This document shows, piece after piece, positions 92-12,398 of a stretch of 20,000 nucleotides of DNA. The stretch is from an uncultured virus (IMG/VR IMGVR_UViG_3300028886_000092) (taxonomy: Duplodnaviria > Heunggongvirae > Uroviricota > Caudoviricetes), in the IMG/VR virus record IMGVR_UViG_3300028886_000092; one strand, 5' to 3'. The position numbers and the translations under genes are program-made. A model generated the notes under the pieces. It had not been told where the DNA came from and did no database searches. It was given only the letters and a program-made list of their open reading frames with translations. How positions within the stretch are numbered: position 1 is the stretch's first letter; every line of letters starts with the position of its first letter.

Positions 92-94
92 CTC

Positions 95-646
95 TTATGA
101 GGCTTTATCGAGTGGGTCCGACTCTCCTGCTTCACCTTCATTTCCGAACGGGTTCTCCGTACCCTCAAAATCAAGGGTAGTCTGAACGGCTGAATACTTG
201 TGTTCCTTAACGTACAACTTAGCCTCTTCAATAACGGCATCTACCGCCTCGTTCAGTTCAGACAGACGCTCATAGTTCTCTGCCTCTTCCTCAAGGGTTA
301 TAGGAGGCGTGTTGAGGCATAACACCTTATTGGTGACAACAAGCGTTCTACGGCCCGTCAGAACGCACGAAACGAATGAATCAGAACCACTGATGGTAAC
401 ACCAGTCACGTCCATACGTCTAACGAGATCTGCGTTAGCCTCTGAATCGGGTGCGTTCCAGTCAAACTTCTCTGCTTCTTTCTGTTCCGTCAAGTCACAG
501 AGGAACGGCACAAGCCGCTTCATCGCATCCTTCAAGTCGGAATGAACGGGATTCGCACCTTTCAGGTTCACCTCATTACCCTCATCATCAATGAAGGTGG
601 TCTCCAAACAACCGTTCTTAATGATTTTTGCTTTTTTGATAATCAT
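95..646 (-). CDS. hypothetical phage protein, 183 aa, acidic
   Basis: Long ORF co-oriented in the early operon, with an A-rich leader. Confidence 0.8.
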   Translation of the reverse strand: MIIKKAKIIKNGCLETTFIDDEGNEVNLKGANPVHSDLKDAMKRLVPFLCDLTEQKEAEKFDWNAPDSEANADLVRRMDVTGVTISGSDSFVSCVLTGRRTLVVTNKVLCLNTPPITLEEEAENYERLSELNEAVDAVIEEAKLYVKEHKYSAVQTTLDFEGTENPFGNEGEAGESDPLDKAS

Positions 647-682
647 AGTAGTGAAATTTTGAATTAGAAAAAAAGAGGAGCA

Positions 683-1102
683 TCACTTATTGCGATACTC
701 CTTAATGAAATCTTCGTAGAACCTATCAGCCGGTAGCGGAAGTTGTATGCCTAACTCTGAAGCCGCGTCCGCCTGTATCAGGTTAAGGAATTTAGTCATC
801 TGCATAGTCGTAAGGCTGGATGAGGAACCTTTCACCATCGTCTCATTGATGCCTACCTTAACAGGCCTTGCAAGAAACTTCGTGCAATAGTAGTCGTATA
901 TGTCCTGTTTCGGTTGTCCCGTCTCCTGACTTATACACTCCATCCACATCCACATGAGCGAGTTCTGTGCAACAGTCCTCGGCTCTTTCTTCCGCGAAAT
1001 GGTAAGGTCGTATGTCCCGTTCGTCAGCTTGGAGCAGAGATATTCCAACGATTGTTCCATACTGACCTTACCATCCTTCTTGATAAGTTGAGTGGTTACC
1101 AT
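683..1102 (-). CDS. NinB/Orf-like recombination mediator, 139 aa
   Basis: Start moved to ATG 1102, adjacent to the ssb stop. Motifs 'RTVAQNSLMW' and 'SSSSLTTMQMTKFL...ELGIQLP' resemble NinB; it sits next to ssb and erf. Confidence 0.65.
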   Translation of the reverse strand: MVTTQLIKKDGKVSMEQSLEYLCSKLTNGTYDLTISRKKEPRTVAQNSLMWMWMECISQETGQPKQDIYDYYCTKFLARPVKVGINETMVKGSSSSLTTMQMTKFLNLIQADAASELGIQLPLPADRFYEDFIKEYRNK

Positions 1103-1103
1103 A

Positions 1104-1643
1104 TTACCAAGGTTTATTATCCACCGGTACCGCCTGCGATGCATGTCCGTACACGCCTACAGGTGGTTGTTGTGTAGGAGCTGCAGGGGCAGGTGCATAC
1201 GGCTGTTGCACTGGAGCCTGACTGTACTGCGGGGCGGGTGCGTACTGGGGAGCCGCTGGCTGCGGAATGTAGCCAGGTTGAGGCATTACCTGCTGAGTCT
1301 GAGCCTGCGCCTTTGGTGTCAGCAGTTCGAGCACGTCGCACTGGACTTCCGTGTAAGACTTCTTTACGCCTTGCTGGTCGGTGTATTCTCCAGTGTAGGT
1401 TTTGCCCTCGATATACACCTTGTCGCCTTTGTGCAGGTATTGCTCTGCGACATCTGCCTTCTTGCCACGACAGATGATGTTGAACCACTCTGTATGGTCC
1501 GGTACTTGCGCACCGCTCTGTGTAGTGTAACATTTCTCAGTGACGGCTACAGAAAAGCGGCATGCCTTAGAGCCATCTGGAAAGCTGCGAACATCGGGGT
1601 CTTTCCCCAAGTTGCCAATAAGAATTTGTTTGTTTACGCTCAT
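1104..1643 (-). CDS. ssb: single-stranded DNA-binding protein
   Basis: 'VNKQILIGNLGKDP...TEWFNI...YLHKGDKVYIEG' OB-fold signature, Pro/Gln-rich linker, and a C-terminal tip 'DNKPW'. Confidence 0.95.
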   Translation of the reverse strand: MSVNKQILIGNLGKDPDVRSFPDGSKACRFSVAVTEKCYTTQSGAQVPDHTEWFNIICRGKKADVAEQYLHKGDKVYIEGKTYTGEYTDQQGVKKSYTEVQCDVLELLTPKAQAQTQQVMPQPGYIPQPAAPQYAPAPQYSQAPVQQPYAPAPAAPTQQPPVGVYGHASQAVPVDNKPW

Positions 1644-1645
1644 CG

Positions 1646-2653
1646 TTATTTAAGTTTAAGAGTAAATGCTCCGGCCCTTACCGACTGCTTGATATACTGC
1701 TCGTACAGATCGGCATGGTCTTTCTTGAATCTTGTTGTGTCAAAGGTGTTGGTAATGCTGTCCTTAGCTATAGTAGCAATGAACTTTCCACCATCCCAAC
1801 TCTTTATGCCGTGCTCAAGCATGGCGTTCTTCAACTGGACTTTCAACTCATCAAGCCGCTTCTTTGCAGCCGTCTCTTCTTCAAGGATGGCGGCTATGAC
1901 ATTGATAACCTGCTGAGGTAAGAGGTTATTCTCCTGGGCGGCCATAGAGGTACCAGCGTAGGCGAATCTCGACTTGTCACCAACATCATACACGAAGCCA
2001 TGATCCGTGAGTTCGTAGGTGCAGTCGAGAAGCTGCGCGATGAGGCTGTCATCCTTGCGCTCGATTGCCCACTGCTTACACTGGGAATCACGGAACCAGT
2101 TGCCAAGCAATCCCTCAACCTTCAATGTCGGGTTCTGCTTCTCGAAGAGGAAGGCATAGCTACTAAGCTGCCAAGACAGATACTCAATGAGAGCATCTTC
2201 GCCGCCAGGGTAGAGGTCAAGGTTGTTAGTCTTGGTATCAACAAGCCAGATGCCTCCGGTATCTTTCTTCTGCCAGACATTATCAATGTTACTTGCGTAC
2301 ATGATATTGTCGCTGACAGTGTACTCGTTATCGATAGGGTCGAAACCTTCACGCAACTTGATGTAGTTCTCCAACTGGGCAGACACGTCAAGGTGCCCGT
2401 TCAGTGGGAGGTCATACTCGGTTATCTTCTCTCCTGTCTTGTCATACATCTCAATGGAGTGGTGTACTGCCGTTCCCTTCTCTCCAGCCTTGGGGATAAG
2501 ATACTCTTTAACATAATCACTTGCGTCACCATAAACACCAAGGCCGGTAGCGGCCTTGATGAGTGTAGTGATACCTGATAGCTGAACTCCCTGCAGGAAA
2601 TATCCATGAGGGTTCTCGCTGAACTCAACTTGACTTTGAACTAACTGAATCAT
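1646..2653 (-). CDS. PD-(D/E)XK (Cas4/RecB-like) phage exonuclease, 335 aa
   Basis: Start at ATG 2653 overlapping the erf stop (ATGA). Motifs 'GTAVHHSIE', 'E..V......ASNIDNV...LVDTKT', 'WQLSSYA'; C-terminal coiled coil. Confidence 0.8.
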   Translation of the reverse strand: MIQLVQSQVEFSENPHGYFLQGVQLSGITTLIKAATGLGVYGDASDYVKEYLIPKAGEKGTAVHHSIEMYDKTGEKITEYDLPLNGHLDVSAQLENYIKLREGFDPIDNEYTVSDNIMYASNIDNVWQKKDTGGIWLVDTKTNNLDLYPGGEDALIEYLSWQLSSYAFLFEKQNPTLKVEGLLGNWFRDSQCKQWAIERKDDSLIAQLLDCTYELTDHGFVYDVGDKSRFAYAGTSMAAQENNLLPQQVINVIAAILEEETAAKKRLDELKVQLKNAMLEHGIKSWDGGKFIATIAKDSITNTFDTTRFKKDHADLYEQYIKQSVRAGAFTLKLK

Positions 2654-3456
2654 GCTGTAAGAGTTTGACGTTTTGCAACAATAGCATTTCCGAAAGGAGT
2701 GTTGGCGGCAATGGTTGCAGGCCAAATGTCAGTCCAACGCTGAATGAGAATCTCTATGTCATCGTTTTTCTGGCACGTTTCCAATTCTGCAATACCGAAG
2801 CCAGATGCCTTCTGGAACATGGCATTACACAACTGCGTGTTTTGGCTCAATTCGGGATGCTCCTTTGAAATATCCTGCCAGTAAGCCATCAGTTCATCGA
2901 TGCTCTGCTTTGCGTTCACATCGTTGATGAATCCTTTCAGTTGGGCACCATTGATGCCAGCCTTGGTACTCGCTGCACCTTGCGTTGCTTGCTTGGTGGC
3001 ACCCTGTTTCCCGTTGTACTCGACCTGATTGCCACAAGCGGCATTGGCATCATCGTCTTCATCTGCAACAATGCCGAGGATGGCGCAATAGGCATAACGC
3101 TTCAGATAGGTAATCATGGAGCCTATCTGCTGAAAGGCGTTAGAGGATAGTGTGCCTTGATGAAGCGGCAACTGCGATGTTACGAACTCTCCTGACGAGT
3201 GAGCAAGGGTAGTCACAAGGACTTGCCCTTGGATTGTCTGAATGACTGCGAGACCGTTCTTCTGCAACTCAGGTGCGGCTGCGCTGATGCACGCAGCGAG
3301 ATCTGCGTACTGGAACGTGTACGAGCGGCCGTCCTTCGTGGCGACTTTAACGGACTTGCTCAACTTGGGCTGCTTGAGGCTCCCTTGGAACTTTGACAGA
3401 GCTTCGGCGAGTTTGCCGATTGTTTCACTCTGCATTGGAATCATTTTTTCTTCCAT
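2650..3456 (-). CDS. ERF-family single-strand annealing recombinase
   Basis: 'LAEALSKFQ', 'YADLA', 'TTLAHSSGE', 'QQIGSMITYLKRYAYCAILGIVADEDDDAN' are typical ERF motifs. Confidence 0.9.
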   Translation of the reverse strand: MEEKMIPMQSETIGKLAEALSKFQGSLKQPKLSKSVKVATKDGRSYTFQYADLAACISAAAPELQKNGLAVIQTIQGQVLVTTLAHSSGEFVTSQLPLHQGTLSSNAFQQIGSMITYLKRYAYCAILGIVADEDDDANAACGNQVEYNGKQGATKQATQGAASTKAGINGAQLKGFINDVNAKQSIDELMAYWQDISKEHPELSQNTQLCNAMFQKASGFGIAELETCQKNDDIEILIQRWTDIWPATIAANTPFGNAIVAKRQTLTA

Positions 3457-3744
3457 TTTGATTAAATTTAATTGGTTTGACTTATGTGAGAATTAATCTC
3501 ATTTACATCTGTAAAGTTAGGCATAAAAGACAAGATAAGAAAACAGAAACTTCACCATTTTGCCACCTTAACTTTTACTAACATATTGTTGTCTGTTGGA
3601 ATATTCAGAAAACCTGCACCGCCTCCTCGGACGATGCAGGACAATGTTTTATCGTCCATAAAAGATTGATTGATTGGCAGACAATAAAACAATCACTGGC
3701 TATCCTCACGAACCGTCAGTGTCGCGGTTTGAAATGATTGATTG

Positions 3745-3819
3745 TGGGCCATCAGGGATTCGAACCCCTTCATCCCCTCCAGTCGCAACCACAGATACCA
3801 CACTGGAGCGATAGGCCCA
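3745..3819 (-). ncRNA. tRNA-like structured element (T-arm, closing stem, no clear D-arm)
   Basis: On the minus strand: TGGGCC...GGCCCA closing stem, CTCCAGT/ACTGGAG internal stem, and a GGGTTCGAATCCC T-loop hairpin. Confidence 0.45.
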
Positions 3820-3858
3820 TTAGGGAGAGGCGGCTACCTCTCCCAGTCCTGAATAAAA

Positions 3859-4107
3859 TCAATCGAGGTTTGATTTCCTATCCTCACGGACCAGATAATC
3901 AACCGTGTTCCTTACCCAGTCGGGTATCAGCAAACGCGAATACTTCAACAGGAATAAGGAATATATAATACCGATAAGGTTCACCAGATATGGACCATTG
4001 TCAATACCGATGAAACTTAACAGTGAATAGCCTCCCTCGCAGAAAATGAGGATACATGGTGAGCACACGATTGTCACCCATAATACTGCAATAATTTCTT
4101 TCTTCAT
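3859..4107 (-). CDS. small membrane protein, 82 aa
   Basis: Start ATG 4107 (MKKEIIAVLW...), two hydrophobic segments, A-rich leader. Confidence 0.65.
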   Translation of the reverse strand: MKKEIIAVLWVTIVCSPCILIFCEGGYSLLSFIGIDNGPYLVNLIGIIYSLFLLKYSRLLIPDWVRNTVDYLVREDRKSNLD

Positions 4108-4138
4108 GACTTTTATATTTAGATGGTTTGACTTGTGT

Positions 4139-4384
4139 TTAGCGTCTGTTCTTGCAATGCACCAGTACTTGTGGAGCACACACGAACCATTTGCCGTTTT
4201 GCTTATAGCATGGTTTTGAAGCTTTCACTTGCTCTGATGCGATGAGGCTTTCAAGTTTGCCGGTACCGCCTACGATATGGGCGGCAAGTTCTTTGCTGAA
4301 AGTCTCATGCTCAAAGGCAAGCAGTATGTTCTGCAGCATTGCCGACTGGGTGGCAAGCGGCACATTGTCTAAACTTACTCTCAT
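4139..4384 (-). CDS. excisionase-like winged HTH protein
   Basis: 'FSKELAAHIVGGTGKLESLIASEQVKASK...NGKWFVCAPQVL' has a MerR/Xis-like wHTH pattern; the start overlaps the upstream stop. Confidence 0.55.
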   Translation of the reverse strand: MRVSLDNVPLATQSAMLQNILLAFEHETFSKELAAHIVGGTGKLESLIASEQVKASKPCYKQNGKWFVCAPQVLVHCKNRR

Positions 4385-4599
4385 AAGAGGAACTCCTTTC
4401 TCCAGTAGTCCATTCCTTTCATGTGGATGGTATCTACAAGCACTTTGATGAGTTTCCTCTTGCTGCCTTCTACTCCGATGCTGAAAATCTCCCAGTCAGA
4501 ATCAGCAATCTGCTTCTCTGTAGCCTCAAAAAAGTAGGCAGACGTGTAAGGCATGCCAGCTCGATGAATCTGGCTTTTCAGTTTCTTGAAATTTATCAT
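4381..4599 (-). CDS. hypothetical protein, 72 aa, first ORF of the leftward operon
   Basis: ATG start; ATGA coupling to the next ORF. Confidence 0.6.
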   Translation of the reverse strand: MINFKKLKSQIHRAGMPYTSAYFFEATEKQIADSDWEIFSIGVEGSKRKLIKVLVDTIHMKGMDYWRKEFLL

Positions 4600-4962
4600 C
4601 TTCGTTAAAATTTAGGGGGTTGTAGTGGCCATGCGTGTTCCGGTGTGTACGCTTACAGCCTCCGCTGAGGCTATGGCCCCAGGCAGGACGGTTTGAAAAT
4701 GTGGAAAACCTGCCTTATAATTTAATAATGTATTTATCTACTTCTCATCTCTCTGTCCGGATGATGGACTGTTGCTCTTTGCGACCGTCCCCTCTCTTTG
4801 GGTTATAATGGTCACTCCTCCGGGGAACATTCAGCCCCGTTTCCCTCCGCCCCTATCTACCCTTAACGAGCCTCGCCCGTGTTTATGTAGCTTTGGCGTC
4901 CAATGGGGAACTCCATAATTTTTATATGATTTATGGAAGTCTGTCAAAGAACTCTTCTTCAA

Positions 4963-5053
4963 TGGCGATCATGCCAGGACTCGAACCTGATGCGCCCCTC
5001 TTGGCGCAGACCTGCGAACACACGAATTAGCATCCGCTTGTTACAATCAAGCC
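4963..5053 (-). ncRNA. second tRNA-like element in the early leader
   Basis: Minus strand has a TGCGCC/GGCGCA hairpin directly followed by the T-arm CAGG-TTCGAGT-CCTG and ends ...GATCGCCA; the acceptor stem is imperfect. Confidence 0.4.
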
Positions 5054-5079
5054 GAGAACGAGAGTTTTTGAAAGATTTC

Positions 5080-5111
5080 TTTGGTAAAATGCCTTTTTTG
5101 TCATAACTTTG
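5080..5111 (+). promoter_or_regulatory. Bacteroidetes sigma-A promoter for the repressor operon
   Basis: TTTG (5080-83), 20-nt spacer, TAACTTTG (5104-11): full consensus. Confidence 0.75.
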
Positions 5112-5136
5112 CCCTCGATTGATTGATTTGATACCG

Positions 5137-5169
5137 CAAAGGTATAACATTTGGCGCAATTATTCCAAA
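5137..5169 (-). promoter_or_regulatory. Bacteroidetes sigma-A promoter for the leftward early (lytic) operon
   Basis: Minus strand TTTG (5169-66), 21-nt spacer, TACCTTTG (5144-37). Confidence 0.75.
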
Positions 5170-5204
5170 TATTTTTGGAAGAAATTGCAACACATGGCGC
5201 AATT
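5152..5204. promoter_or_regulatory. candidate repressor operators
   Basis: TGGCGCAATT direct repeat (5152-61, 5195-5204); palindrome TTCCAAA-tatt-TTTGGAA (5163-80) over the -33 box of the leftward promoter. Confidence 0.45.
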
Positions 5205-5258
5205 TTGTGAAAAATAACGCCATTTGACACAATTTTTAACTAAAAAAACGGTTTGAAA

Positions 5259-5663
5259 ATGGAAGCAAAAGACTTTAGACAAGATGTTTTTAATCGGCTT
5301 GTCGAATTCAAGGAGCAGACAGGCTTGACCTTAAACGCATTTGCAGGAGGCATTGGAATGAAACATGCCACACTACACAATCAGTTTCATGGCAAAAGAG
5401 ACCTCTCTCTTGAAACTGTCATCAACACCCTTGCTAATTACGGAGAACTTTCAGCAGAATGGCTATTGCGTGGGAACGGTAGTATGTATCTGGTTGAGCC
5501 ATCTGTTACAACAGATGATGCCAAACAGAAAAATGATGCCCGTCTTGACACGCTTATTGACACAATAAAATTGCTGCAAGAGACTATAAAGTCGAAGAAC
5601 GCCACCATTGACGCTCTCCAGGCTGAACTTTCCAAGTATGAGAACAAATCAAAGAAAGCATGA
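5259..5663 (+). CDS. CI-like XRE/HTH phage repressor, 134 aa
   Basis: HTH 'LTLNAFAGGIGMKHATLHNQFHGKRDLS', the 'SAEWLLRGNGSM' motif typical of Bacteroidales phage repressors, and a C-terminal coiled coil. No S24 peptidase domain. Divergent from the early genes. Confidence 0.85.
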   Translation: MEAKDFRQDVFNRLVEFKEQTGLTLNAFAGGIGMKHATLHNQFHGKRDLSLETVINTLANYGELSAEWLLRGNGSMYLVEPSVTTDDAKQKNDARLDTLIDTIKLLQETIKSKNATIDALQAELSKYENKSKKA

Positions 5664-6346
5664 AAAAAGCAATTTTTATCTTGGCGTTTATTCTTCTTTG
5701 CGTTTTAGGTTGCTTTTTCAGTAATCATAATAGCATGACTAACAATAATGACACATTAGAAGATACAACAGAAGTTGGGCCTGCAACAGAAGAGAATGAT
5801 AATGCTAAAGATACAACAAAACGTGAAGTTGCAAAAGTGGAGCCGTTCCCTGAACATCTCATCGTAAGAACTCGTGATGAGATTAAGTACAGAACTCTTG
5901 TAGAACACAAGGGGCGTCAAAGGTTTGGAAGCTGCGTTTTGACAGCCATTTATTCTATTGAAGAACTGGACAATATAACGGGGAAGAAACTGAGTACTCC
6001 AAATGTAGGCTCGTTTCAGCTTGTAATGTACCTGTCACATAAAGGTGCGTACAAACCTGAGACCATCGTTCTCGTTTGCGACGGGGTGCCACATCAAATA
6101 ACTCCAAATTTCATCCAGTCTGCTGGCAGTGGGAAGTTTATTCTCCTGTTTAATATAGGAATTATGAATAGTACTTCAACGGTTCCGCGTGACATAACAA
6201 AAGCGAAAACGGTTGAAATAAGGGTTCGTTATGATAATGGGGATGATATAATTAAGGTATCGGACAAAGACCAAGAAGCCATTAAGGTTATGTATTGGAG
6301 TTTCTATAGAGATGGAGGAACAAATACTGAAGTAGATGGCTATTGA
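5660..6346 (+). CDS. putative lipoprotein or membrane-anchored protein, 228 aa
   Basis: MKK, hydrophobic core and a VLGC lipobox-like sequence, followed by an acidic linker; ATGA overlap with the repressor. Confidence 0.75.
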   Translation: MKKAIFILAFILLCVLGCFFSNHNSMTNNNDTLEDTTEVGPATEENDNAKDTTKREVAKVEPFPEHLIVRTRDEIKYRTLVEHKGRQRFGSCVLTAIYSIEELDNITGKKLSTPNVGSFQLVMYLSHKGAYKPETIVLVCDGVPHQITPNFIQSAGSGKFILLFNIGIMNSTSTVPRDITKAKTVEIRVRYDNGDDIIKVSDKDQEAIKVMYWSFYRDGGTNTEVDGY

Positions 6347-6643
6347 ATAATTATTAACTCAAAAACGGTTTGAAAATGGAAAAAGACGATTTTGTTTCCG
6401 ATTTATTGTCGGGCTGAAAAAGCAAATGAGTCCGAATATGCGAGTTTTCCTAAGTTTCAAGCAGTTTTATTGCAAAAAAGTTGTATTTATGCACTAAAAA
6501 CTGCCACAATTTACGGAAAACACGCAACTATACGGACTTTAGAGAGTAACCAATTAAGAAAATGAGCCACTTTTGACGCAAATCTTATTGTCGGTTTGTG
6601 GTCCTTCTGGCTCAAAACATTTACTTTTTATTGTCGCAAAATT

Positions 6644-7846
6644 ATGGCAAATCTTAGCGCAGTTATTGTACCTGCAAAGGTACTAAAAGGTGGGAAGCAT
6701 AAAATAAGGATCGCCGTCTCACACAATTCAAAAACACGATACATCGTAACGGATATTACAATAGATTCAGACAAAGAGTTTAAGGATGGTCGTATAGTCA
6801 AGCGGCCAGACGCAGCCATCAAGAACGTGAAGCTGCGTGGCCTGCTCGATAAGTATCAGGAGGCTCTGGACAATCTCGTCTTCGTTGAGAGCCTTTCATG
6901 TGAGGAACTTGTGTCACAACTGAAGAACAATGACAGGTACCGCCATCGTACAATCCGCTCAATATATGATGAGTATGTAACAGTTAAGTCTATAAAAGCC
7001 TCATCGCGCTCTATATATGATATTCAAATCAGAAGTATATTGCGATACCTCGGGACCGATATGCTGATGGAGAACGTGAGCTATTCTACGGTGATAGGAC
7101 TGGAGAAATACCTTACCGAACAGGGGAATTCATCAACAACTATAAGAGGTAAGCAGCTTTTCCTTATGACTCTATACTTCTTCGCTCAGAAGTGTATGTA
7201 TATACCTTTCAAGACAGACCCTTGGTTCGGATACAAGTTTCCGGAAGCTAAGGTGAGAGATGCCTGGCTAACAATAGAAGAGGTGGCAAGGATTAGGGAT
7301 GCCTCATTCAAGCAACGCCAAAGAAGTCAGGTGCGCGATATGTTCATGCTCTCATACTACCTTGGAGGAATTAACATGGTGGATATGCTCAGCATCAACT
7401 TCAACGAGTGCGGAAGGCATATTATTTACGAACGTACAAAGACAGACAGAATGTCTAAAATTAACAAGTACGTTGAGTTTGACATGCCAGACGAGGCGAT
7501 GGAAATAATCAACCGCTACAAGCAGCCTAATGGCTTGCTATTCTCAGCCTCATCAACGAGAAGCAGAAGGTTTCACCAGACGCTCGACTACAACATGAAG
7601 CGCATAGCGGAGGACTTGGGGCTTAACAAGCTCATCTTCTATTCTGCCCGTAAATCATTTGCACAACATGCTCTCGACCTCGGTATAGAGCAATGTACCA
7701 TAGACTTTATTTTGGGCCACAAACTGAACAAGAGGGGTACGAGTTTGTTCAATTATATAAAGGTAACACCTGAACTTGCAACAGATGCAGTGAAAAAAGT
7801 TTGCAGTTCTCTAAGAAATGTCGTACCTTTGCCAACGAATCAGTAA
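6644..7846 (+). CDS. int: tyrosine integrase (Bacteroidetes type with arm-binding and SAM-like domains), 400 aa
   Basis: ATG 6644; N-terminal arm-binding-like region; 'RDMFMLSYYLGGINMVD', 'YERTKT', 'FYSARKSFA', 'ILGH', and a candidate catalytic Tyr in 'FNYI'. Confidence 0.92.
   Translation: MANLSAVIVPAKVLKGGKHKIRIAVSHNSKTRYIVTDITIDSDKEFKDGRIVKRPDAAIKNVKLRGLLDKYQEALDNLVFVESLSCEELVSQLKNNDRYRHRTIRSIYDEYVTVKSIKASSRSIYDIQIRSILRYLGTDMLMENVSYSTVIGLEKYLTEQGNSSTTIRGKQLFLMTLYFFAQKCMYIPFKTDPWFGYKFPEAKVRDAWLTIEEVARIRDASFKQRQRSQVRDMFMLSYYLGGINMVDMLSINFNECGRHIIYERTKTDRMSKINKYVEFDMPDEAMEIINRYKQPNGLLFSASSTRSRRFHQTLDYNMKRIAEDLGLNKLIFYSARKSFAQHALDLGIEQCTIDFILGHKLNKRGTSLFNYIKVTPELATDAVKKVCSSLRNVVPLPTNQ
7800..7831 (+). 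promoter_or_regulatory. consensus sigma-A promoter inside the 3' end of int
   Basis: TTTG (7800-03), 20-nt spacer, TACCTTTG (7824-31). Confidence 0.7.
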
Positions 7847-7913
7847 GATTTCCATTTTGGTTATCACTGGTTTGACTTGTGTGGCACTGGGGGTGGTTCC
7901 CCAGTGCTTTTTT
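7837..7913 (+). ncRNA. predicted ~75-nt trans-acting antisense sRNA
   Basis: Lies between a consensus promoter and an intrinsic terminator; carries 15-16 nt complementary to leaders of two leftward early genes. The 5' end is approximate. Confidence 0.55.
7884..7913 (+). terminator. intrinsic terminator
   Basis: GCACTGGGG-gtggtt-CCCCAGTGC followed by T6. Confidence 0.85.
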
Positions 7914-8005
7914 ATATCCCTCATGCAACCTTTCCAAATATTATGAGTATCTTATATAGAGTACCCCAATTGCGAGATGAGATTGTGTGGTTGAGGGGTA
8001 TTCTT

Positions 8006-8045
8006 GGAGGCTGCGTGTTACTGTGCTGTGCAGCCTCCTTTTTTT
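8006..8045 (+). terminator. second rightward intrinsic terminator
   Basis: GGAGGCTGC...GCAGCCTCC followed by T7. Confidence 0.75.
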
Positions 8046-8059
8046 GTTTGAGCCTCATC

Positions 8060-8083
8060 AAAAAAACGCGTCCCTCGGACGCG
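8060..8083 (-). terminator. terminator of the lysis genes
   Basis: CGCGTCC-3nt-GGACGCG stem followed by T7 on the minus strand, immediately after the lysin stop. Confidence 0.75.
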
Positions 8084-8089
8084 CCTTAT

Positions 8090-8773
8090 TCATAGTTTGG
8101 AATATTCCTTCAAAGCATCAAATGACGGACAGCATTTTATCCACTCACAGGGTGATATGATTCCGTCACCGTTTTTGTCCGGGGAGAAATCCCGATGTCC
8201 CTTAATAATAGCCCTTGGATATTGACCCTTCAGCTCCTTTAAGAGCCTCATCAGGGATTGCTTCTGCTCTGGTGTCCGAGTGTCCTTTGCTTTCAGCTTG
8301 CTATACGGTACATTCGGATTGTTCTCCAATCCTCCCACGTATGCTACACCGATGCTATGGGAGTTGTAACCGCTAACGTGCGCACCTACCTTGTCAACAC
8401 TTCGCCCTCGTGCTATTGTCCCGTCTCGGTAGATAACGAAATGGTAGCCGATATCGCTCCAGCCGTTCTGCGTCATGTGCTCGTTTCGGATCTGCGCCAC
8501 CGTCTTATCCTTACCCTCAGGAGTAGCAGTACAATGTACGGCAATATAGTCAATACGGCGTGCAGTTGTCTTAGCGACATCAACCTGCGGCAAAAGTTTG
8601 GCAAGGGTCTCTGGGCCTGCTATACCATCAGGTGTAAGTCTGTTCTCACGCTGCCATGTTATAAGAGCCTCGCGTGTCAGCTTACCAAATATGCCATCAG
8701 GGATGAGGTGTAAAGCACGTTGTATCTGTTTGACTCCCTCACCTCTCGAATTGAGTTTATATATGGTAGTCAT
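8090..8773 (-). CDS. endolysin: peptidoglycan-binding domain plus T7-type N-acetylmuramoyl-L-alanine amidase
   Basis: 'DGIFGKLT...WQREN.LTPDGIAGPET' (PG_binding_1); 'VHCTAT', 'DIGYH', 'GAHVSGYN', 'GHRDF', 'KCCPSF' Zn-amidase motifs. Confidence 0.95.
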   Translation of the reverse strand: MTTIYKLNSRGEGVKQIQRALHLIPDGIFGKLTREALITWQRENRLTPDGIAGPETLAKLLPQVDVAKTTARRIDYIAVHCTATPEGKDKTVAQIRNEHMTQNGWSDIGYHFVIYRDGTIARGRSVDKVGAHVSGYNSHSIGVAYVGGLENNPNVPYSKLKAKDTRTPEQKQSLMRLLKELKGQYPRAIIKGHRDFSPDKNGDGIISPCEWIKCCPSFDALKEYSKL

Positions 8774-9243
8774 TATTCCTCCTTATCCTTGATATTACAA
8801 TCCTCAATAAGACTAATTACACGCTCACGGAAAGACGCTTCCGATAAAGCACTTTGCAGCAACCGTTTGAAATCATCCTGCAGCTTTTTCTCCTTGATAT
8901 TGGCCGGCTCCGTTATGCTCCTAATCTCGACAAAGGCTTCGTAGAGTACGCCTATGAGTGTAAAAACTGGCAGCATAGGAATATCATACTGATACTCACG
9001 ATAGAGCATATATAATAGGCTTATCTGGACTGCATCAACAAGCGTCATGGCAAAGTGCATGGCAAAGTACTTGTTAATCTTCCCAACTGTCTTTTTAAGG
9101 CCCTCACTGGTGCGAAATTCGCCTCTCTGTTTAGCCTTGCGCACACCAGCCCACAAATCAGCAAAGATAAGACCTAATGCTACTATATAGAAAAGCAACA
9201 CAACAAAACCGCACACAATCAAAGTTCCTATTCTTCCTTCCAT
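8773..9243 (-). CDS. phage holin, 156 aa
   Basis: ATG 9243; three hydrophobic segments, 'ADLWAGVRKAK..GE..TSEGLKKTVGK', 'EIRSITE'; its stop overlaps the lysin start. Confidence 0.85.
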   Translation of the reverse strand: MEGRIGTLIVCGFVVLLFYIVALGLIFADLWAGVRKAKQRGEFRTSEGLKKTVGKINKYFAMHFAMTLVDAVQISLLYMLYREYQYDIPMLPVFTLIGVLYEAFVEIRSITEPANIKEKKLQDDFKRLLQSALSEASFRERVISLIEDCNIKDKEE

Positions 9244-9371
9244 TTTTGAATTTACATTAAAAATTAAACATAGGAAGAACGGCCACTGGCTCCCATCGGG
9301 CTGTCTCCCTATGCAAAGGTAGGACAAAATGCGGTACGTTTAACATTTTGCCGGAATCTCAAATAAACAGG

Positions 9372-9401
9372 AAAAGCCCTGAAGGGTTATCCTCCAGGGC
9401 T
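9372..9401 (-). terminator. terminator after the DUF5053-like cassette
   Basis: AGCCCTG...CAGGGCT stem followed by a T run on the minus strand. Confidence 0.65.
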
Positions 9402-9457
9402 AAATTGCGCTGACGGTCACCAGCGACTTTTGTCAATCGGCGAGATAGGGCCGAGAC

Positions 9458-9715
9458 CTAAAATATCTCATCAGCCGCCTTGCGAAGGCGTTCTGACATA
9501 TCAATAAGAGCTCCGCGAAGCTGTAATGCTTCAGTTTCTGAAAATCCGCCTTGACCTCCGTTTCCGTCTATTCCATCCATCTTATGATAGAACCATGAAG
9601 ACGATTTGTGGAAATACGTGTTTGATAGTTCCCTCCATGATACAATCATGAGAATGTCCTTTAGCTTTTTCTTCATGTCTGTAATAACATAAGGTTGTTT
9701 TAGTACTTCTTCCAT
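9458..9715 (-). CDS. DUF5053-like HTH protein, 85 aa
   Basis: 'VSWRELSNTYFHKSSSWFYHKMDGIDGNG..GGFSE.E..QLRGALIDMSERLRKAAD' matches my recollection of Bacteroidetes DUF5053; ATG 9715. Confidence 0.75.
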   Translation of the reverse strand: MEEVLKQPYVITDMKKKLKDILMIVSWRELSNTYFHKSSSWFYHKMDGIDGNGGQGGFSETEALQLRGALIDMSERLRKAADEIF

Positions 9716-9780
9716 AATTAAAAACTGGTTAATGGTTGTTTCTGTTATAAGGTTCCCTCCCCGAAGGGAGGGTTCCTTTT

Positions 9781-9933
9781 TCACTCGTAAGGCTGTCTTA
9801 ACATGTTGTCGAAGAGCCTTTGTGCATACCAGAGGAGTTCGGGATAACCATCGGGAAATGATTTGTTGTAGTTTCTGATGGCTGCGAGTAATTCCTCTTC
9901 TTGCTCACTTACTTCAATAAATTTCTTTTTCAT
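9781..9933 (-). CDS. small protein, 50 aa, partner of the DUF5053-like gene
   Basis: ATG 9933 with an A-rich leader directly downstream of a consensus promoter. Confidence 0.7.
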   Translation of the reverse strand: MKKKFIEVSEQEEELLAAIRNYNKSFPDGYPELLWYAQRLFDNMLRQPYE

Positions 9934-9960
9934 TTTTCTATCTCTTTTTGTTTGACAATA

Positions 9961-9992
9961 CAAAGGTACTACGAATTTTCGTATTATGCAAA
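9961..9992 (-). promoter_or_regulatory. sigma-A promoter with a palindromic operator in the spacer
   Basis: TTTG (9992-89), 20-nt spacer, TACCTTTG (9968-61); TACGAAttTTCGTA palindrome at 9970-83. Confidence 0.75.
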
Positions 9993-10063
9993 TTTTTGAA
10001 CAACTTTTTTTCAAAAAAATACAAAATTCTTGATTTTCGTACGTTATTTTGCGAAAATCGCAC

Positions 10064-10091
10064 AAAAAAGGCGGCACATCGCTGCACCGCC
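10064..10091 (-). terminator. probable terminator after the 154-aa gene
   Basis: GGCGG...CCGCC stem followed by T6 on the minus strand. Confidence 0.55.
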
Positions 10092-10119
10092 AAAACCCTA
10101 AACTTTAACAACCATGACA

Positions 10120-10584
10120 CTATATGGAATAGCAATTCAAATCAAGACTTGTCTTCTCAGCCCAGCAGGACTGCAGGCAGTCCTTTATATGGTTCTGCAC
10201 ACTAGAATAGAAGGCAGAATAATTATCCTTTGTCAGGGATATAGTCACATCGTTACCTTCTGCATCCTCCACCTTGATAACAACTGGGTATCTTCCCATG
10301 CTCTTGAACATGGCATAGTTCAACTGATTCTCAACAGAGAGGTTAATCTTGTAACCATCATACACCATACCGCCAGTGATACGGGCACGGGTTTCGTTGT
10401 CTATAGCTTCAAGGATACATGTCTTTATCTCTTCTGGAGTAGGCTTGTGGTCAAACTTGTGCCTATAGTTATATCCATGTTCGGCATCATCATTCTCCTT
10501 GCCGAAGCCATAGTACAAATAATACACCTTACCGACTTTGATAAGGGAATCTTGTCTTTGATTAGCGCCAAAAATCTTTTCCAT
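10120..10584 (-). CDS. phage protein, DUF4376/tail-fibre-assembly-like, 154 aa
   Basis: Clean ORF with its own -7 box (10616-09). 'AIDNETRARITGGMVYDG..INLSVENQLNY' resembles proteins found after tail-fibre genes; the family call is tentative. Confidence 0.6.
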   Translation of the reverse strand: MEKIFGANQRQDSLIKVGKVYYLYYGFGKENDDAEHGYNYRHKFDHKPTPEEIKTCILEAIDNETRARITGGMVYDGYKINLSVENQLNYAMFKSMGRYPVVIKVEDAEGNDVTISLTKDNYSAFYSSVQNHIKDCLQSCWAEKTSLDLNCYSI

Positions 10585-10631
10585 ACCTTTTGAGATTTTT
10601 TCCTACTGCAAAGGTATGAAAAAAAACAATG

Positions 10632-11975
10632 CTATGTGAAAATGTACTTAATCTTGTTGTCAGCGAAAGGTTCTGCACGAATGACTGTCTCAAAGGGAAA
10701 GCCGTCCTCTATGTCGCTTATCTTGTCGAGAATCTGCTTCATCTCCTTGCTTGCTGTGAAGAACTTTTTGAACACTTCACCTTCTTTCACGGAAACAAGG
10801 TATCTGTCATCCCCGTTCTCTGTTTTCAAGTCCTTCTCATAGTCAAGTACAACTATGGGGACATTGGTAATGCTACTCAATCGCACGGTATTGCCGGGGA
10901 ATCGTTTCTTCCCGTCTTCGGGAGTATAGGTCACCCCCATCTCGCTAAATTTCTTCATATATTTACTTGTTAATTTGTGATACAAGTTTTTGCAGTCGGC
11001 ATGACAGGCCATTCCCAAAAACGAGCCTATTATCTCCTGCCTGCGTTTTCTACTCTTTACCTTGTGCAGCTTCCTTGCCGCATTCTGCTTTATCCTCTTC
11101 CTGATGAGGCTGTAATCCTCAAACTGAACATATCCGAGATAGTCGAGGCCTTCACTGATGGGGCGGACTGCCTCATTCGGCTTTATCCTCAGGCCGAGCT
11201 TTGCAATCTCACTTACATAAAGGTCGCGCAGCTTCCATAGATGTTTTTTGCTATTGGAGAAAATTACAACGTCATCACAATAGCGATAATAAAGAAACCT
11301 CACCTCTTCTCCGTCGTCAGTTTGCAAGACGTAAGAATATACATGTTTCAGCATAACATGATCGACAGGAGAAAGAAAGAGGTTTGCATAACACTGGGAT
11401 GAGCGCAGGCCCTTGGAGAGTCCGTTTGGTAGCAAGTCTACGAAGTTTTCAAGCATGGGGAGCAATACCTCGTCACAAACATATTTCCTCAGCTCTTGTT
11501 TCATCAGGGTATGGCTGATATTGTCATAGTAGTGCTCGATGTCGCTCTGCCAGTAGTATTTGCATAGCAGTGGGACGTTCTTAATATCGTCCTCTACAAT
11601 ATGGTGCATCCAGTGCATACCCCTTCCCTTGATTGAGGCAGCCGTATTTTTGATGAGGCTCGGATAAGTGTAGCGTTCTACAACTACCATGATGGCATGT
11701 ATTCCTACTCTCTTATAGACGGTAGGAGCCTGCACGTCCCTCTCCTTTGGCCCGTCCTTCACATGGATATCACGCACATCCTCCCTATATATACGAAAAA
11801 TGCCGCTCCCAATCTCTGCAGTCAGTTTCTCTACATAAGACATTCGGAGTGGCTTATACTTCTCTCGCTGTTCCTCATATTCAAGATGCCCGATAACATA
11901 GTCAAAGCTATCGTACATGTTTTCTTCGCAGACAATCTCAGGGATGAGGTTGTCAAGAGGATAGGAAAATTCCAT
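10632..11975 (-). CDS. DGR reverse transcriptase with C-terminal extension, 447 aa
   Basis: RT motifs 'GPKERDV', 'ASIKGRGMH', 'QSDIEHYYDNI', 'GLSKGLRSSQCYANLFL' (DGR-type SQ), 'YYRYCDD', 'GLDYLGY'; adjacent TR/VR pair. Confidence 0.96.
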   Translation of the reverse strand: MEFSYPLDNLIPEIVCEENMYDSFDYVIGHLEYEEQREKYKPLRMSYVEKLTAEIGSGIFRIYREDVRDIHVKDGPKERDVQAPTVYKRVGIHAIMVVVERYTYPSLIKNTAASIKGRGMHWMHHIVEDDIKNVPLLCKYYWQSDIEHYYDNISHTLMKQELRKYVCDEVLLPMLENFVDLLPNGLSKGLRSSQCYANLFLSPVDHVMLKHVYSYVLQTDDGEEVRFLYYRYCDDVVIFSNSKKHLWKLRDLYVSEIAKLGLRIKPNEAVRPISEGLDYLGYVQFEDYSLIRKRIKQNAARKLHKVKSRKRRQEIIGSFLGMACHADCKNLYHKLTSKYMKKFSEMGVTYTPEDGKKRFPGNTVRLSSITNVPIVVLDYEKDLKTENGDDRYLVSVKEGEVFKKFFTASKEMKQILDKISDIEDGFPFETVIRAEPFADNKIKYIFT

Positions 11976-12116
11976 TTGCCTTCAGGACTTTAAGATATTT
12001 TTCGGCTTTCCACCATTGATGCTGTTGCCGTTGCTCGGAGTCCTCGCACATACTATGGCCAACACGTAGCCTTGGCAGAGATGCGATTATCGGGTTTTAC
12101 CCTAAGTTCTTTAGTT

Positions 12117-12230
12117 GAGACGCGCCCCGTTGTTCGTGTTCGAGTTCGAAGAAGCGTTGTTCGTGTTCGTATAGGCGAGACCGCCGTTAGCGTTCGCGTT
12201 GTTGTTCGCACGACTGACAACACGGCCGTT
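12117..12230 (-). repeat. DGR template repeat (TR), 114 bp
   Basis: Ungapped match to 12435-12548. Contains 13 AAC codons in the target frame (NGRVVSRANNNANANGGLAYTNTNNASSNSNTNNGARL). Confidence 0.97.
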
Positions 12231-12246
12231 GGACTCTTCCGCGCTG

Positions 12247-12254
12247 CAAAGGTA
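12247..12254 (-). promoter_or_regulatory. -7 promoter box for the TR-RT transcript
   Basis: TACCTTTG(CA) 16 nt upstream of the TR; no consensus -33 box. Confidence 0.55.
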
Positions 12255-12330
12255 CGCAATTTCAAAAAGATTTCCATATTTGGGCTCAAAAAATTTTTCG
12301 CCTTTGGCGATTTTTGACTTTGCAAACGAG

Positions 12331-12359
12331 AGAGGGAGCAGCCTTTCGGCTCTCCCTCT
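12331..12359 (-). promoter_or_regulatory. hairpin/cruciform downstream of the VR (candidate DGR target-recognition element)
   Basis: AGAGGGAG-AGCC-GAAA-GGCT-g-CTCCCTCT: 12-bp stem with one bulge and a GAAA loop. Confidence 0.7.
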
Positions 12360-12398
12360 GACGCTCTTTTCAAAATTTTCGCTCGACGCTCTGACGCT

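What the first reader, a model, noticed from the sequence alone, without database searches (positions are those of the whole stretch)
7800..7913. Hidden sRNA gene behind the integrase, antisense to early lytic gene leaders
Seen: a full consensus promoter (TTTG-N20-TACCTTTG, 7800-31) within the last codons of int and a strong terminator (7884-7913) delimit ~75 nt with no useful ORF. Its body TTCCATTTTG-gttatcac-TGGTTTGACTTGTGTG repeats the + strand upstream of erf: TTCCATTTTG (3451-60, covering the start codon) and TGGTTTGACTTaTGTG (3473-88). It also repeats TGGTTTGACTTGTGT (4124-38) upstream of the 82-aa gene. These genes are transcribed from the - strand, so the RNA would pair with their translation-initiation regions. 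Inference: a lysogen-expressed trans-acting silencer of lytic genes, conceptually like P1 C4 or P4 CI RNA immunity; I know of no description in Bacteroidales phages. Caveat: the TTCCATTTT part is generic for AAAATGGAA starts and also fits the repressor and holin.
Basis: partly seen in the sequence, partly recalled or inferred. Interest (0 to 1): 0.85.

Follow-up and report, generated by a model that had tools for sequence, protein, structure and literature searches.

The report
Phage small RNA against lytic-gene leaders
Just after the integrase gene of this Bacteroidales temperate phage lies a probable ~77-base small RNA gene, conserved in many related phages, whose sequence is the mirror image of a short box placed in front of the start codons of the phage's lytic genes, so it probably switches them off by base pairing.

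Summary
Window 7800-7913 holds TTTG-N20-TACCTTTG, about 77 nt with no conserved ORF, and a strong terminator. Its 16-mer recurs at 3473-3488 and 4124-4139 (3 matches, 0.03 expected).

The unit belongs to a family absent from Rfam 15. It was found in 55 of 80 fetched phage loci, usually right after an integrase homologue. Members share a -7 box, a 5' hairpin, a short single-stranded linker and a GC terminator. Hairpin covariation is well above controls (0.457 against 0.153 shuffled).

Its conserved block is the complement of a leader box, AAGTCAAACCA. In each of five further ~60-kb genomes the box occurs 6-11 times on one strand and 0-1 on the other. It sits 12-17 nt before the ATG in 32 of 44 copies. 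Some copies follow promoters and others lie between cistrons, which points to action on RNA.

Each phage's unit pairs best with its own leaders (-33.5 against -27.0 kcal/mol; 2 of 5040 permutations as good). The five box-bearing leaders are the top 5 of 166 predicted targets.

Most likely this is a trans-acting antisense sRNA that silences lytic operons (confidence 0.6). Transcription, pairing in cells and the direction of regulation are untested. The attachment site was not located.

The parts
7800..7803 (+). -33 element TTTG of the unit's promoter, inside the last codons of int
   Evidence: Read. An nTTG lies 18-20 nt upstream of the -7 box in 23 of 27 distinct units (9 exact TTTG, 14 A/GTTG). 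This also holds where the unit follows a terminator and not int.
7824..7831 (+). -7 element TACCTTTG (Bacteroides TAnnTTTG type)
   Evidence: Read. TAnnTTTG is present in all 27 distinct units and was not part of the search pattern. In L009, int stops earlier after a ~45-nt tandem duplication, and only the copy next to the RNA keeps TACCTTTG and CGAATCAGT.
7836..7913 (+). Predicted small RNA, about 77 nt. The 5' end is inferred from promoter geometry, not measured.
   Evidence: Folds at -34.2 kcal/mol with z -5.81; 0 of 200 shuffles fold as well. Scores 69.3 bits, E 1.1e-13, against family model R1. No Rfam family matches.
7836..7874 (+). Hairpin 1. The 5' arm CGAAUCAGU pairs with ACUGGUUUG. 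The loop carries CAU (7853-7855), the complement of a start codon.
   Evidence: Fold. Family covariation in helix 1: 8 of 11 pairs change on both sides. CAT lies in the apical 18 nt in 17 of 23 distinct units, against a shuffled mean of 6.8; 0 of 2000 shuffles reach 17.
7868..7883 (+). Anti-box TGGTTTGACTTGTGTG, complement of the leader box. 7875-7882 (ACUUGUGU) is the single-stranded linker and the proposed toehold.
   Evidence: There are 15-nt exact matches to two leaders of the same phage and a 13-nt match to a third.
7883..7913 (+). Rho-independent terminator, shared with int
   Evidence: The outer stem pairs covary across the family: 3 of 6 model pairs change on both sides and 96.4% of cells are paired.
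3473..3488 (-). Leader box of the erf operon (CACATAAGTCAAACCA), 16 nt upstream of the erf ATG (erf is 2650-3456 on the - strand)
   Evidence: Best predicted target of 166 start regions, -26.1 kcal/mol net.
3489..3575 (-). Repeated promoter module of lytic operons: AAGTTAAGGTGnnAAAATGGTGAAGTTTCTG...CTAACTTTACAGATGTAAA
   Evidence: Four copies on one strand of the whole phage record G001.
4124..4139 (-). Intercistronic leader box (AACACAAGTCAAACCA). It starts at the stop codon of the 81-aa gene (4139-4384) and lies 16 nt upstream of the ATG of the 82-aa gene (3859-4107).
   Evidence: Fifth best predicted target, -14.0 kcal/mol.
6596..7846 (+). Tyrosine integrase (Arm-DNA-bind_5, Phage_int_SAM_5, Phage_integrase domains). 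Its 3' end overlaps the unit's promoter.
   Evidence: A homologue at 34-84% identity lies directly upstream of the unit in 21 of 29 representative loci.

Best explanation
Window 7800-7913 is a small RNA gene of a temperate Bacteroidales phage. It has a Bacteroides-type promoter in the last codons of int and shares int's terminator.

The roughly 77-nt RNA folds into a 5' hairpin, an 8-nt single-stranded linker and a terminator hairpin. The linker and the 3' arm of hairpin 1 carry UGGUUUGACUUGUGUG. This is the complement of a leader box (AAGUCAAACCA plus phage-specific flanks) that sits 12-17 nt upstream of the start codons of the first genes of the lytic operons and of some internal cistrons. 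In the window these are erf and the 82-aa gene. Elsewhere in the genome they are the ParB-like, WYL_2 and 160-aa genes. The hairpin loop carries CAU opposite the start codon.

Proposed mechanism: the free linker nucleates on the box. The duplex then spreads into hairpin 1 and covers the translation initiation region. This blocks ribosome loading in a phylum that does not use Shine-Dalgarno pairing. One constitutive RNA would thus hold down all lytic operons in a lysogen, and probably those of incoming relatives.

Shown here: the sequence features, the family, the structural covariation, the genome-wide box pattern, the cognate complementarity and a favourable net hybridisation energy. Inferred: transcription and its start point, pairing in the cell, repression as the outcome, and expression in the lysogen.
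For: 1. The unit is a conserved family.
- The pattern scan found at least 109 viral stretches. Of the 80 fetched, 55 have the full hairpin form, giving 27 distinct units.
- Relatives found independently through the integrase protein (L009, L010, L011, L013; int 74-84% identical) keep the unit, with compensatory changes in the terminator stem.

2. Features that were not in the search pattern are also conserved.
- TAnnTTTG is present in 27 of 27 units, and an nTTG -33 element 18-20 nt upstream in 23 of 27.
- The 5' AUCAA pairs with UUGGU.
- In 8 of 29 representative loci the unit follows a 149-152-aa ORF and its terminator and not int; 3 of 3 such ORFs tested are DUF5053. It is therefore a free-standing gene.
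- In L009, int and the promoter have been separated by a duplication, and the non-coding copy keeps the -7 box.

3. The RNA structure is supported.
- 89.8% of cells are paired against 72.5% shuffled. The covariation score is 0.457 against 0.153 (0 of 500 shuffles reach it) and 0.05-0.11 for slid controls. 11 of 17 pairs change on both sides.
- The window RNA folds with z -5.8, and five other units take the same shape with z -4.1 to -5.0.

4. The leader box has a genome-wide pattern.
- Counts of AAGTCAAACCA (up to 1 mismatch) on the leader strand / other strand in five ~60-kb phages: 7/0, 9/1, 6/1, 7/0, 11/1. The reversed-pattern control gives 0-2 per strand.
- Of 44 non-unit boxes in 7 phages, 36 have an ATG 5-30 nt downstream and 32 have one at 12-17 nt (median 14.5).
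- 24 of those 36 follow a TAnnTTT[AG] box. The other 12 do not, and several of these lie directly after a stop codon. A fixed distance to AUG without a promoter points to action on RNA.

5. Unit and leaders match within each phage. Using all leaders, own unit against own leaders averages -33.5 kcal/mol and non-cognate pairs -27.0. The own unit ranks first for 6 of 7 phages. 2 of 5040 permutations do as well. Exact matches of 15-18 nt extend into phage-specific flanks.

6. Pairing is favourable after paying for intramolecular structure. The top 5 of 166 start regions of the whole phage are the five box leaders (-26.1 to -14.0 kcal/mol); the next is -11.4 and the median -2.8.

7. CAT lies in the apical part of hairpin 1 in 17 of 23 units, against 6.8 expected.

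8. The box is phage-specific. In five bacterial genomes it is at background level except in clusters on prophage contigs.
Against: - There is no direct evidence of a discrete transcript. Only assembled contigs of RNA libraries were available.
- The two most invariant blocks (GGTTTGACTT and GGTGGTT) were in the search pattern, so their invariance among pattern-derived loci is partly circular.
- The G-U wobble test does not favour RNA pairing overall: 27 G-U-compatible against 22 A-C transitions. In the flank 3' of the box, 13 transitions are all of the A-C kind.
- About half of the anti-box is sequestered in hairpin 1.
- 8 of 44 boxes lack a nearby ATG, and some precede tRNA or tRNA-like genes (with the tRNAs of L062). 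The box may therefore have its own cis function, such as processing or an enhancer role.
- Cognate matching could also arise from recombination between repeated copies.
- The unit always lies in the int-to-lysis junction, where attP is expected, and I could not locate attP.
- (G)TAnnTTTGC resembles the CTnDOT core consensus; this is recalled, not tested.
- Named Bacteroides phages with 31-32% identical integrases (BS-TP3, BF1-TP2) lack the unit.
Confidence: 0.6

Rival explanations
1. The small RNA is real and pairs with the box, but the outcome is not silencing. The box would be a cis-acting RNA element, such as a processing site or translational enhancer. The RNA would then guide or block cleavage, stabilise 5' ends or activate translation, for instance as a timing device during lytic growth.
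For: The 11-nt core is unchanged across phages whose integrases are only 34-53% identical. That could reflect a third-party constraint on the box. Boxes also lie in front of tRNA or tRNA-like genes, and between cistrons directly after stop codons.
Against: The box lies 12-17 nt from AUG, inside the ribosome-loading window, and the hairpin loop carries the anti-start codon. Both fit occlusion. A multi-target seed is expected to be frozen without any third party. No complementarity of the box to 16S rRNA was found: best duplex -8.6 kcal/mol against a shuffled mean of -8.8.
Confidence: 0.15
2. The motif is a protein-bound DNA site: an Int arm-type site, a repressor operator or a recombination boundary. 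On this view the copy after int is part of attP, and the hairpin is simply int's terminator.
For: The integrase has an arm-binding domain. The unit always lies in the int-to-lysis junction. All copies have the same absolute orientation on the DNA. TAnnTTTGC resembles the CTnDOT core consensus (recalled).
Against: The copies are spread over 60 kb at a fixed 12-17 nt from start codons, and 12 of 36 have no promoter box upstream. The motif is not palindromic. The model does not explain the conserved promoter at fixed distance, the covariation in hairpin 1, the CAU in the loop, or the units separated from int by a gene and a terminator. In L011 a ~570-nt insertion separates the unit from the next conserved element.
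Confidence: 0.1
3. This is not a gene of its own. It would be int's 3' UTR and terminator carrying a relic inverted copy of a leader, with no function.
For: The unit's reverse complement looks like a leader with a start codon, and the model also weakly hits the antisense of the erf leader (24.9 bits). The promoter elements overlap conserved int codons in the window type.
Against: The unit is kept next to integrases as little as 34% identical, and also away from int. It carries compensatory changes and matches the leaders of its own phage. A relic would decay.
Confidence: 0.07
4. The functional reading is on the - strand: a leader box in front of a mini-ORF.
For: On the - strand the box is followed after 12 nt by ATGGAA.
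Against: The ORF is 14 codons in the window and 4 codons in L009 and L010. No promoter module lies upstream on that strand. The T-run fits + strand termination only.
Confidence: 0.02

Closest known systems
c4 antisense RNA of phages P1 and P7 (immunity region immI)
   Same: A small prophage RNA whose short single-stranded and loop sequences pair with sites in the leader of lytic (antirepressor) genes and block their expression, giving immunity. Basis: passages of the review PMC12197685 read, plus recalled knowledge.
   Different: c4 is processed from the same transcript that it controls, and acts on one operon. Here the RNA has its own promoter on the opposite strand, and the target box is repeated at 4-10 cistrons across the genome. 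No sequence or Rfam relationship was found.
CI RNA of satellite phage P4 (recalled)
   Same: An RNA, not a protein, acts as the immunity factor and pairs with repeated short sites in early transcripts.
   Different: P4 CI is cut out of the leader it controls and causes premature termination. Here the geometry points to translation start regions, and the RNA is encoded elsewhere in the genome.
FopS and GibS sRNAs of Bacteroides thetaiotaomicron
   Same: About 65-70 nt, sigma-ABfr promoters, and repression by pairing next to start codons of the first gene of an operon in a phylum without Hfq. Basis: passages of PMC11697453 read.
   Different: FopS has a conserved 5' seed and targets host SusC-like genes. 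The FopS Rfam model does not match the unit: the only hit is a sub-threshold one about 430 nt away in L018. Here the seed lies 3' of hairpin 1 and the targets are phage genes.
3' UTR-derived sRNAs with an internal promoter (DapZ / MicL type, recalled)
   Same: The promoter lies inside the end of the upstream coding sequence, and the terminator is shared with the mRNA.
   Different: In 8 of 29 representative loci the same RNA is a free-standing gene behind another gene's terminator.
RteR of CTnDOT (recalled), and sar of P22 and STnc6030 of BTP1 (review PMC12197685)
   Same: RNAs of mobile elements or phages that hold down the element's own transfer or lytic genes, or exclude superinfection.
   Different: sar and STnc6030 are cis-antisense to a single gene. 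RteR belongs to a conjugative transposon. None uses a repeated leader box.

Membership tests
Any Rfam 15 family (4227 models, including FopS RF04319, the BTnc sRNAs and phage antisense RNAs) | Covariance-model score at or above the family's gathering score at the unit | tested here: not met
   No match at window 7600-8200 even at E up to 10. No match at the units of 9 other loci at the gathering threshold, nor of 7 loci at E up to 1.
Bacteroides sigma-ABfr-driven small RNA gene | -33 TTTG and -7 TAnnTTTG at about 19-21 nt spacing (consensus recalled) | tested here: met
   Window: TTTG-N20-TACCTTTG. Family: -7 box in 27 of 27 units, nTTG at 18-20 nt in 23 of 27.
Bacteroides sigma-ABfr-driven small RNA gene | Rho-independent terminator and a discrete short transcript | tested here: inconclusive
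   The terminator is present and covaries. No transcript could be shown: only contigs of RNA libraries were available.
Trans-acting base-pairing sRNA with a multi-target seed | A conserved accessible seed complementary to sites in several mRNAs near their start codons | tested here: met
   Box copies lie 12-17 nt from ATG in 32 of 44 cases. The top 5 of 166 start regions by net energy are the box leaders. The linker is single-stranded, though about half of the anti-box is in a stem.
Trans-acting base-pairing sRNA with a multi-target seed | Co-evolution of the RNA and its targets | tested here: met
   Cognate -33.5 against non-cognate -27.0 kcal/mol, with 2 of 5040 permutations as good. The wobble test is inconclusive, and recombination between copies is not excluded.
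P1/P7 c4-type immunity RNA | Cotranscribed with, and processed from, the operon it represses | tested here: not met
   The unit is on the strand opposite all box-bearing genes and has its own promoter.
P1/P7 c4-type immunity RNA | Expressed in the lysogen and confers immunity | not testable with these tools
   Needs a lysogen, Northern blot or RNA-seq, and superinfection assays.
Int arm-type site / attP | Repeats confined to the arms of attP around the crossover core | tested here: not met
   The copies are dispersed over about 60 kb in front of start codons.
Int arm-type site / attP | The integration junction falls in or next to the element | tested here: inconclusive
   No clean attL/attR pair was found. 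L011 turned out to carry a ~570-nt insertion and not a junction. The comparison of G080 with G158 was ambiguous because of contig breaks.

The most novel reading that the evidence does not exclude
A whole clade of Bacteroidales temperate phages has put all its lytic operons, and several internal cistrons, under one RNA address. This is an 11-13-nt leader box at a fixed distance from the start codon.

A single phage-encoded, hairpin-gated antisense RNA next to the integrase reads that address. It would act as a master RNA immunity switch alongside, or in place of, a protein repressor.

Because the core is shared across the clade and only the flanks differ, the RNA could give graded cross-immunity between related prophages. 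It may work together with a phage Sm-like (WYL_2) protein in a phylum that lacks Hfq.
Probability: 0.35. Interest if true: 0.88.

Novelty: new variant of a known kind. Interest (0 to 1): 0.78.

Why it matters
Antisense-RNA immunity is known from a few enterobacterial phages (P1/P7 c4, P4 CI). I found nothing comparable described for phages of Bacteroidota:
- The 2025 review of phage-derived sRNAs does not contain the word Bacteroid.
- Full-text searches for the motif strings returned only unrelated primers and siRNAs among the 15 of 27 papers listed.
- Two keyword searches gave no relevant paper among those listed.

If the reading holds, it gives:
- a new RNA family for Rfam;
- a regulon defined by a short box that could be used to annotate lytic operon starts in uncultured gut and rumen phages;
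- a natural toehold-gated translational repressor that works without Shine-Dalgarno pairing or Hfq;
- a testable determinant of prophage stability and cross-immunity in abundant gut bacteria.

Tried and rejected
1. Sequencing runs. Four RNA-library runs held small shares (0.05-0.13) of window 5200-8100, all as assembled contigs.
- Run X4 has one 151-nt contig, depth 2 and 0 differences, on 7757-7907, and another on 7588-7738.
- The first bridges the predicted start (about 7836) and stops in the terminator stem.
- It cannot show a start, an end, a strand or that the source was RNA, so it neither supports nor refutes a separate transcript. No habitat is inferred from these shares.

2. Host sRNA or tRNA 3' end as the origin of the conserved blocks. 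The two-block pattern is in 2 of 151 sampled genomes of the family, and model R1 hits 1 of 151. ARAGORN finds no tRNA in the window. Rejected.

3. Box pairing with 16S rRNA: no complementarity beyond shuffled controls. Rejected.

4. Integration junctions.
- L011 looked like a junction directly after the terminator but carries a ~570-nt insertion.
- G157 lacks the int region at its contig ends.
- G080 against G158 is ambiguous.
- attP was not located.

5. GenBank phage collection. No nucleotide match to window 3000-9000 or to a unit of the L024 type. The protein search gave integrases at or below 32% identity, and the two records inspected lack the unit.

6. Wobble (G-U) bias test: inconclusive, 27 against 22.

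7. One search compared units with the best-matching leader only, which biases towards cognate pairs. It was replaced by the all-leader test.

8. One fold (L017) was given wrong coordinates, with the promoter included and the terminator cut (z 0.03). It is disregarded.

9. Earlier notes of this scan: nothing on record for this place or sequence.

10. The - strand mini-ORF is not conserved.
Full report
**Setting.** The window is part of a temperate phage of the Bacteroidales type.
- On the - strand lie recombination and early genes: NinB-like 683-1144, SSB 1104-1643, exonuclease 1646-2725, Erf 2650-3456, and small genes at 3859-4107, 4139-4384 and 4381-4599.
- On the + strand lie a cI-like HTH protein (5253-5663), two unknown ORFs and a tyrosine integrase (6596-7846).
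- Beyond about 8090 the - strand carries a lysis cassette (amidase 8090-8773), a retroelement reverse transcriptase (10632-11975) and a 2524-aa protein.
- The window's own assembly is not held. The nearest record, G001 (61.5 kb), matches window 1-6609 at 100% and 6422-19475 at 94%. Window 6422-6609 maps to both ends of G001, so that record closes on itself.

TTTG (7800-7803), a 20-nt spacer and TACCTTTG (7824-7831) lie in the last codons of int, whose stop is at 7844-7846. A terminator of 11 pairs at 7883-7908 is followed by TTTTTT.
- The 16-mer at 7868-7883 recurs at 3473-3488 and 4124-4139: 3 matches against 0.03 expected, and 0 of 200 shuffles reach 3.
- TTCCATTTTG recurs over the erf start codon: 2 matches against 0.07 expected.
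- Read on the - strand, all three copies are CAC(A/T/C)AAGTCAAACCA followed 12-16 nt later by ATG.

**The unit is a member of a family.**
- Relatives found through the integrase protein keep TACCTTTG, CGAATCAGT, the motif and the hairpin, with compensatory changes in the stem. These are two viral contigs (82-84% identical int) and, of four metagenome-assembled Bacteroidaceae genomes, the two whose contigs reach the unit, L011 and L013 (74-75%); L012 and L014 end before it.
- L009 provides a natural experiment. After a ~45-nt tandem duplication, int ends early in a diverged copy, while the non-coding copy next to the RNA keeps the -7 box and the RNA's first bases exactly.
- A pattern made of the motif and the hairpin loop found at least 109 viral stretches. 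Of the 80 fetched, 55 have the same layout and 25 are chance or coding matches.
- The layout is: TAnnTTTG, about 45 nt forming a variable hairpin, ATTGGTTTGACTT, a GC hairpin around GGGGGTGGTTCCCC, and a T-run. There are 27 distinct units.
- The two blocks in the pattern are invariant partly by construction, so I rely on features that were not in the pattern.

**Independent features.**
- The -7 box is present in 27 of 27 distinct units. An nTTG lies 18-20 nt upstream in 23 of 27.
- An integrase homologue at 34-84% identity lies directly upstream in 21 of 29 representative loci.
- In the other 8, the unit follows a 149-152-aa ORF (3 of 3 tested are DUF5053) and that gene's own terminator. It is therefore a free-standing transcription unit and not merely int's 3' end.
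- RNAalifold and a covariance model give the same two-hairpin structure. On the model-fitted alignment of 29 sequences, 89.8% of cells pair against 72.5% in shuffles. The covariation score is 0.457 against 0.153 shuffled (0 of 500) and 0.05-0.11 for slid partners. 11 of 17 pairs change on both sides. The alignment was fitted to the model, which favours the structure somewhat.
- The window RNA (7836-7913) folds at -34.2 kcal/mol, z -5.8. Hairpin 1 is 7836-7874, the free linker ACUUGUGU is 7875-7882 and the terminator is 7883-7908. Five other units give the same shape with z -4.1 to -5.0. A sixth fold had wrong coordinates and is disregarded.
- No Rfam 15 family matches the unit.

**The target box.**
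- In the whole phage record G001 the complement of the conserved block heads the leaders of erf, the 82-aa gene, a ParB-like gene (563 aa), a WYL_2/Sm-like gene (108 aa) and a 160-aa gene.
- Three of these follow one repeated promoter module, which has four copies per genome.
- In five further ~60-kb phage records, AAGTCAAACCA (up to 1 mismatch) occurs 7/0, 9/1, 6/1, 7/0 and 11/1 times on the leader strand / other strand. One copy per phage is the unit itself. A reversed-pattern control gives 0-2 per strand.
- Over seven phages there are 44 non-unit boxes on the leader strand. 36 have an ATG 5-30 nt downstream and 32 have one at 12-17 nt (median 14.5).
- The 8 dropped copies have no ATG in that range. 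Several of them precede tRNA or tRNA-like sequences.
- Of the 36, 24 follow a TAnnTTT[AG] box ending 16-29 nt upstream and 12 do not. Several of the 12 sit directly after the stop codon of the preceding gene.
- A fixed distance to the start codon with or without a promoter argues for a function on the RNA and against a DNA operator or an Int arm site.
- In five bacterial genomes the 13-mer is at background level, except for same-strand clusters on prophage contigs.
- The box has no special complementarity to 16S rRNA.

**Unit and leaders match within each phage.**
- Exact matches between a unit and the leaders of its own phage run 13-18 nt and extend into flanks that differ between phages: GTGTG in the window type, TTATTGG in G156 and TTTTAGT in G158.
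- Using all leaders with no selection, the mean duplex energy of a unit with its own phage's leaders is -33.5 kcal/mol, against -27.0 for other phages' leaders. The own unit is the best of seven for 6 of 7 phages; the exception is beaten by a close relative. Only 2 of 5040 permutations do as well.
- The apical part of hairpin 1 contains CAT, the complement of a start codon, in 17 of 23 distinct units, against 6.8 expected; 0 of 2000 shuffles reach 17. The units are not phylogenetically independent.
- With intramolecular structure charged, the five box leaders are the top 5 of 166 start regions of G001: -26.1, -23.1, -19.9, -16.0 and -14.0 kcal/mol. The next is -11.4 and the median -2.8.

**Mechanism proposed.** A constitutive sigma-ABfr-type promoter makes a ~77-nt RNA.
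- Its free linker nucleates on the 5' part of the box.
- The duplex then invades hairpin 1, whose 3' arm and loop are antisense to the rest of the leader and to the start codon.
- The initiation region is occluded. This fits a phylum that relies on an unstructured initiation region and not on Shine-Dalgarno pairing (general knowledge; the FopS paper PMC11697453, passages read, shows repression by pairing next to start codons in Bacteroides).
- With 4-10 targets per genome the seed is locked, which explains its invariance.
- The direction of regulation, the timing and in-vivo pairing are all inferred.

**What weighs against it.**
- There is no transcript evidence. The only RNA-library material was assembled contigs, one of which (run X4, 7757-7907, depth 2) bridges the predicted start. 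It could be int mRNA or DNA.
- The wobble test is inconclusive (27 against 22), and the flank 3' of the box shows only A-C type transitions.
- Boxes in front of tRNA-like genes suggest the box may have a cis role of its own.
- Recombination among repeated copies could mimic co-evolution.
- The unit always sits where attP is expected, and attP was not found.
- Bacteroides phages BS-TP3 and BF1-TP2, whose integrases are 31-32% identical, lack the unit.

**Comparison with known systems.** It works like the c4 RNA of P1/P7 and the CI RNA of P4, where an RNA acts as the immunity factor against sites in lytic leaders. It is not a member of either.
- It has its own promoter on the opposite strand.
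- It uses a repeated box at many cistrons.
- It has no Rfam match.
- In form it resembles a 3' UTR-type sRNA with an internal promoter. In action it resembles FopS/GibS.
- I found no description in print. The review of phage sRNAs (PMC12197685, passages and term counts) does not mention Bacteroid. Searches for the motif strings and keyword searches gave nothing relevant among the papers listed. Subscription-only papers and supplements were not searched.

**Verdict.** This is a real, conserved and previously uncatalogued small RNA unit. A well-supported antisense relationship links it to a genome-wide leader box. Its function as a lytic-gene silencer is likely (0.6) but untested.

Noticed in passing
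window 7921-8050 (+): A second conserved non-coding element lies between the unit and the lysis cassette. It aligns across six phages and ends in a hairpin (GGAGGCTGC...GCAGCCTCC) with a T-run on the + strand. It could be a second small RNA, read-through RNA of the unit, or attP. In L011 a ~570-nt insertion rich in ACAAAAGTTATACATTTGTAT-like repeats separates it from the unit.
   Followed up: partly
window 10632-12088 (-), 12399-19973 (-): A diversity-generating-retroelement-like module: reverse transcriptase (PF00078, phrog_1423), an RT-3 RNA (RF03068, 55.5 bits) at 11984-12088, and a 2524-aa protein. The window and G001 are only 94% identical across this half, against 100% for the early region.
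   Followed up: no
window 3489-3575 (-); G001 58465, 50752, 42895, 20171: A promoter module of about 90 nt (AAGTTAAGGTG..AAAATGGTGAAGTTTCTG..CTAACTTTACAGATGTAAA) is repeated four times on one strand in front of the phage's operons. One copy (42895) has no leader box. The conserved upstream half may be a binding site for a regulator such as the cI-like protein.
   Followed up: partly
window about 3735-3812 (-), with a box variant AAATCAAACC at 3867-3876: By eye this sequence looks tRNA-like (GGTTCGAATCC arm), but neither ARAGORN nor Rfam calls it. In related phages a leader box directly precedes tRNA or tRNA-like genes, for example the L062 tRNAs at 1679-1748 and 1985-2068.
   Followed up: partly
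G001 19743-20069 (-), outside the window: The first gene of one box-led operon encodes a 108-aa WYL_2 protein (PF10902, Sm-like SH3 fold). It is a candidate RNA-binding partner for the small RNA in a phylum without Hfq. This is speculation.
   Followed up: no
L058 49-156, L039 8215-8321: The Bacteroides sRNA BTnc049 (RF04179, about 91 bits) lies about 2.3 kb upstream of the unit in the DUF5053-linked subgroup, at the point where several viral contigs begin or end.
   Followed up: no
G080:C84:5485-5569 (-): A second, diverged copy of the unit in one bacterial genome (34.7 bits), with a different hairpin loop. This shows that the GGTGGTT loop is not strictly invariant.
   Followed up: no
L009 6760-6840: A tandem duplication of about 45 nt at the end of int separates the integrase's C-terminal codons from the small RNA's promoter.
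   Followed up: partly
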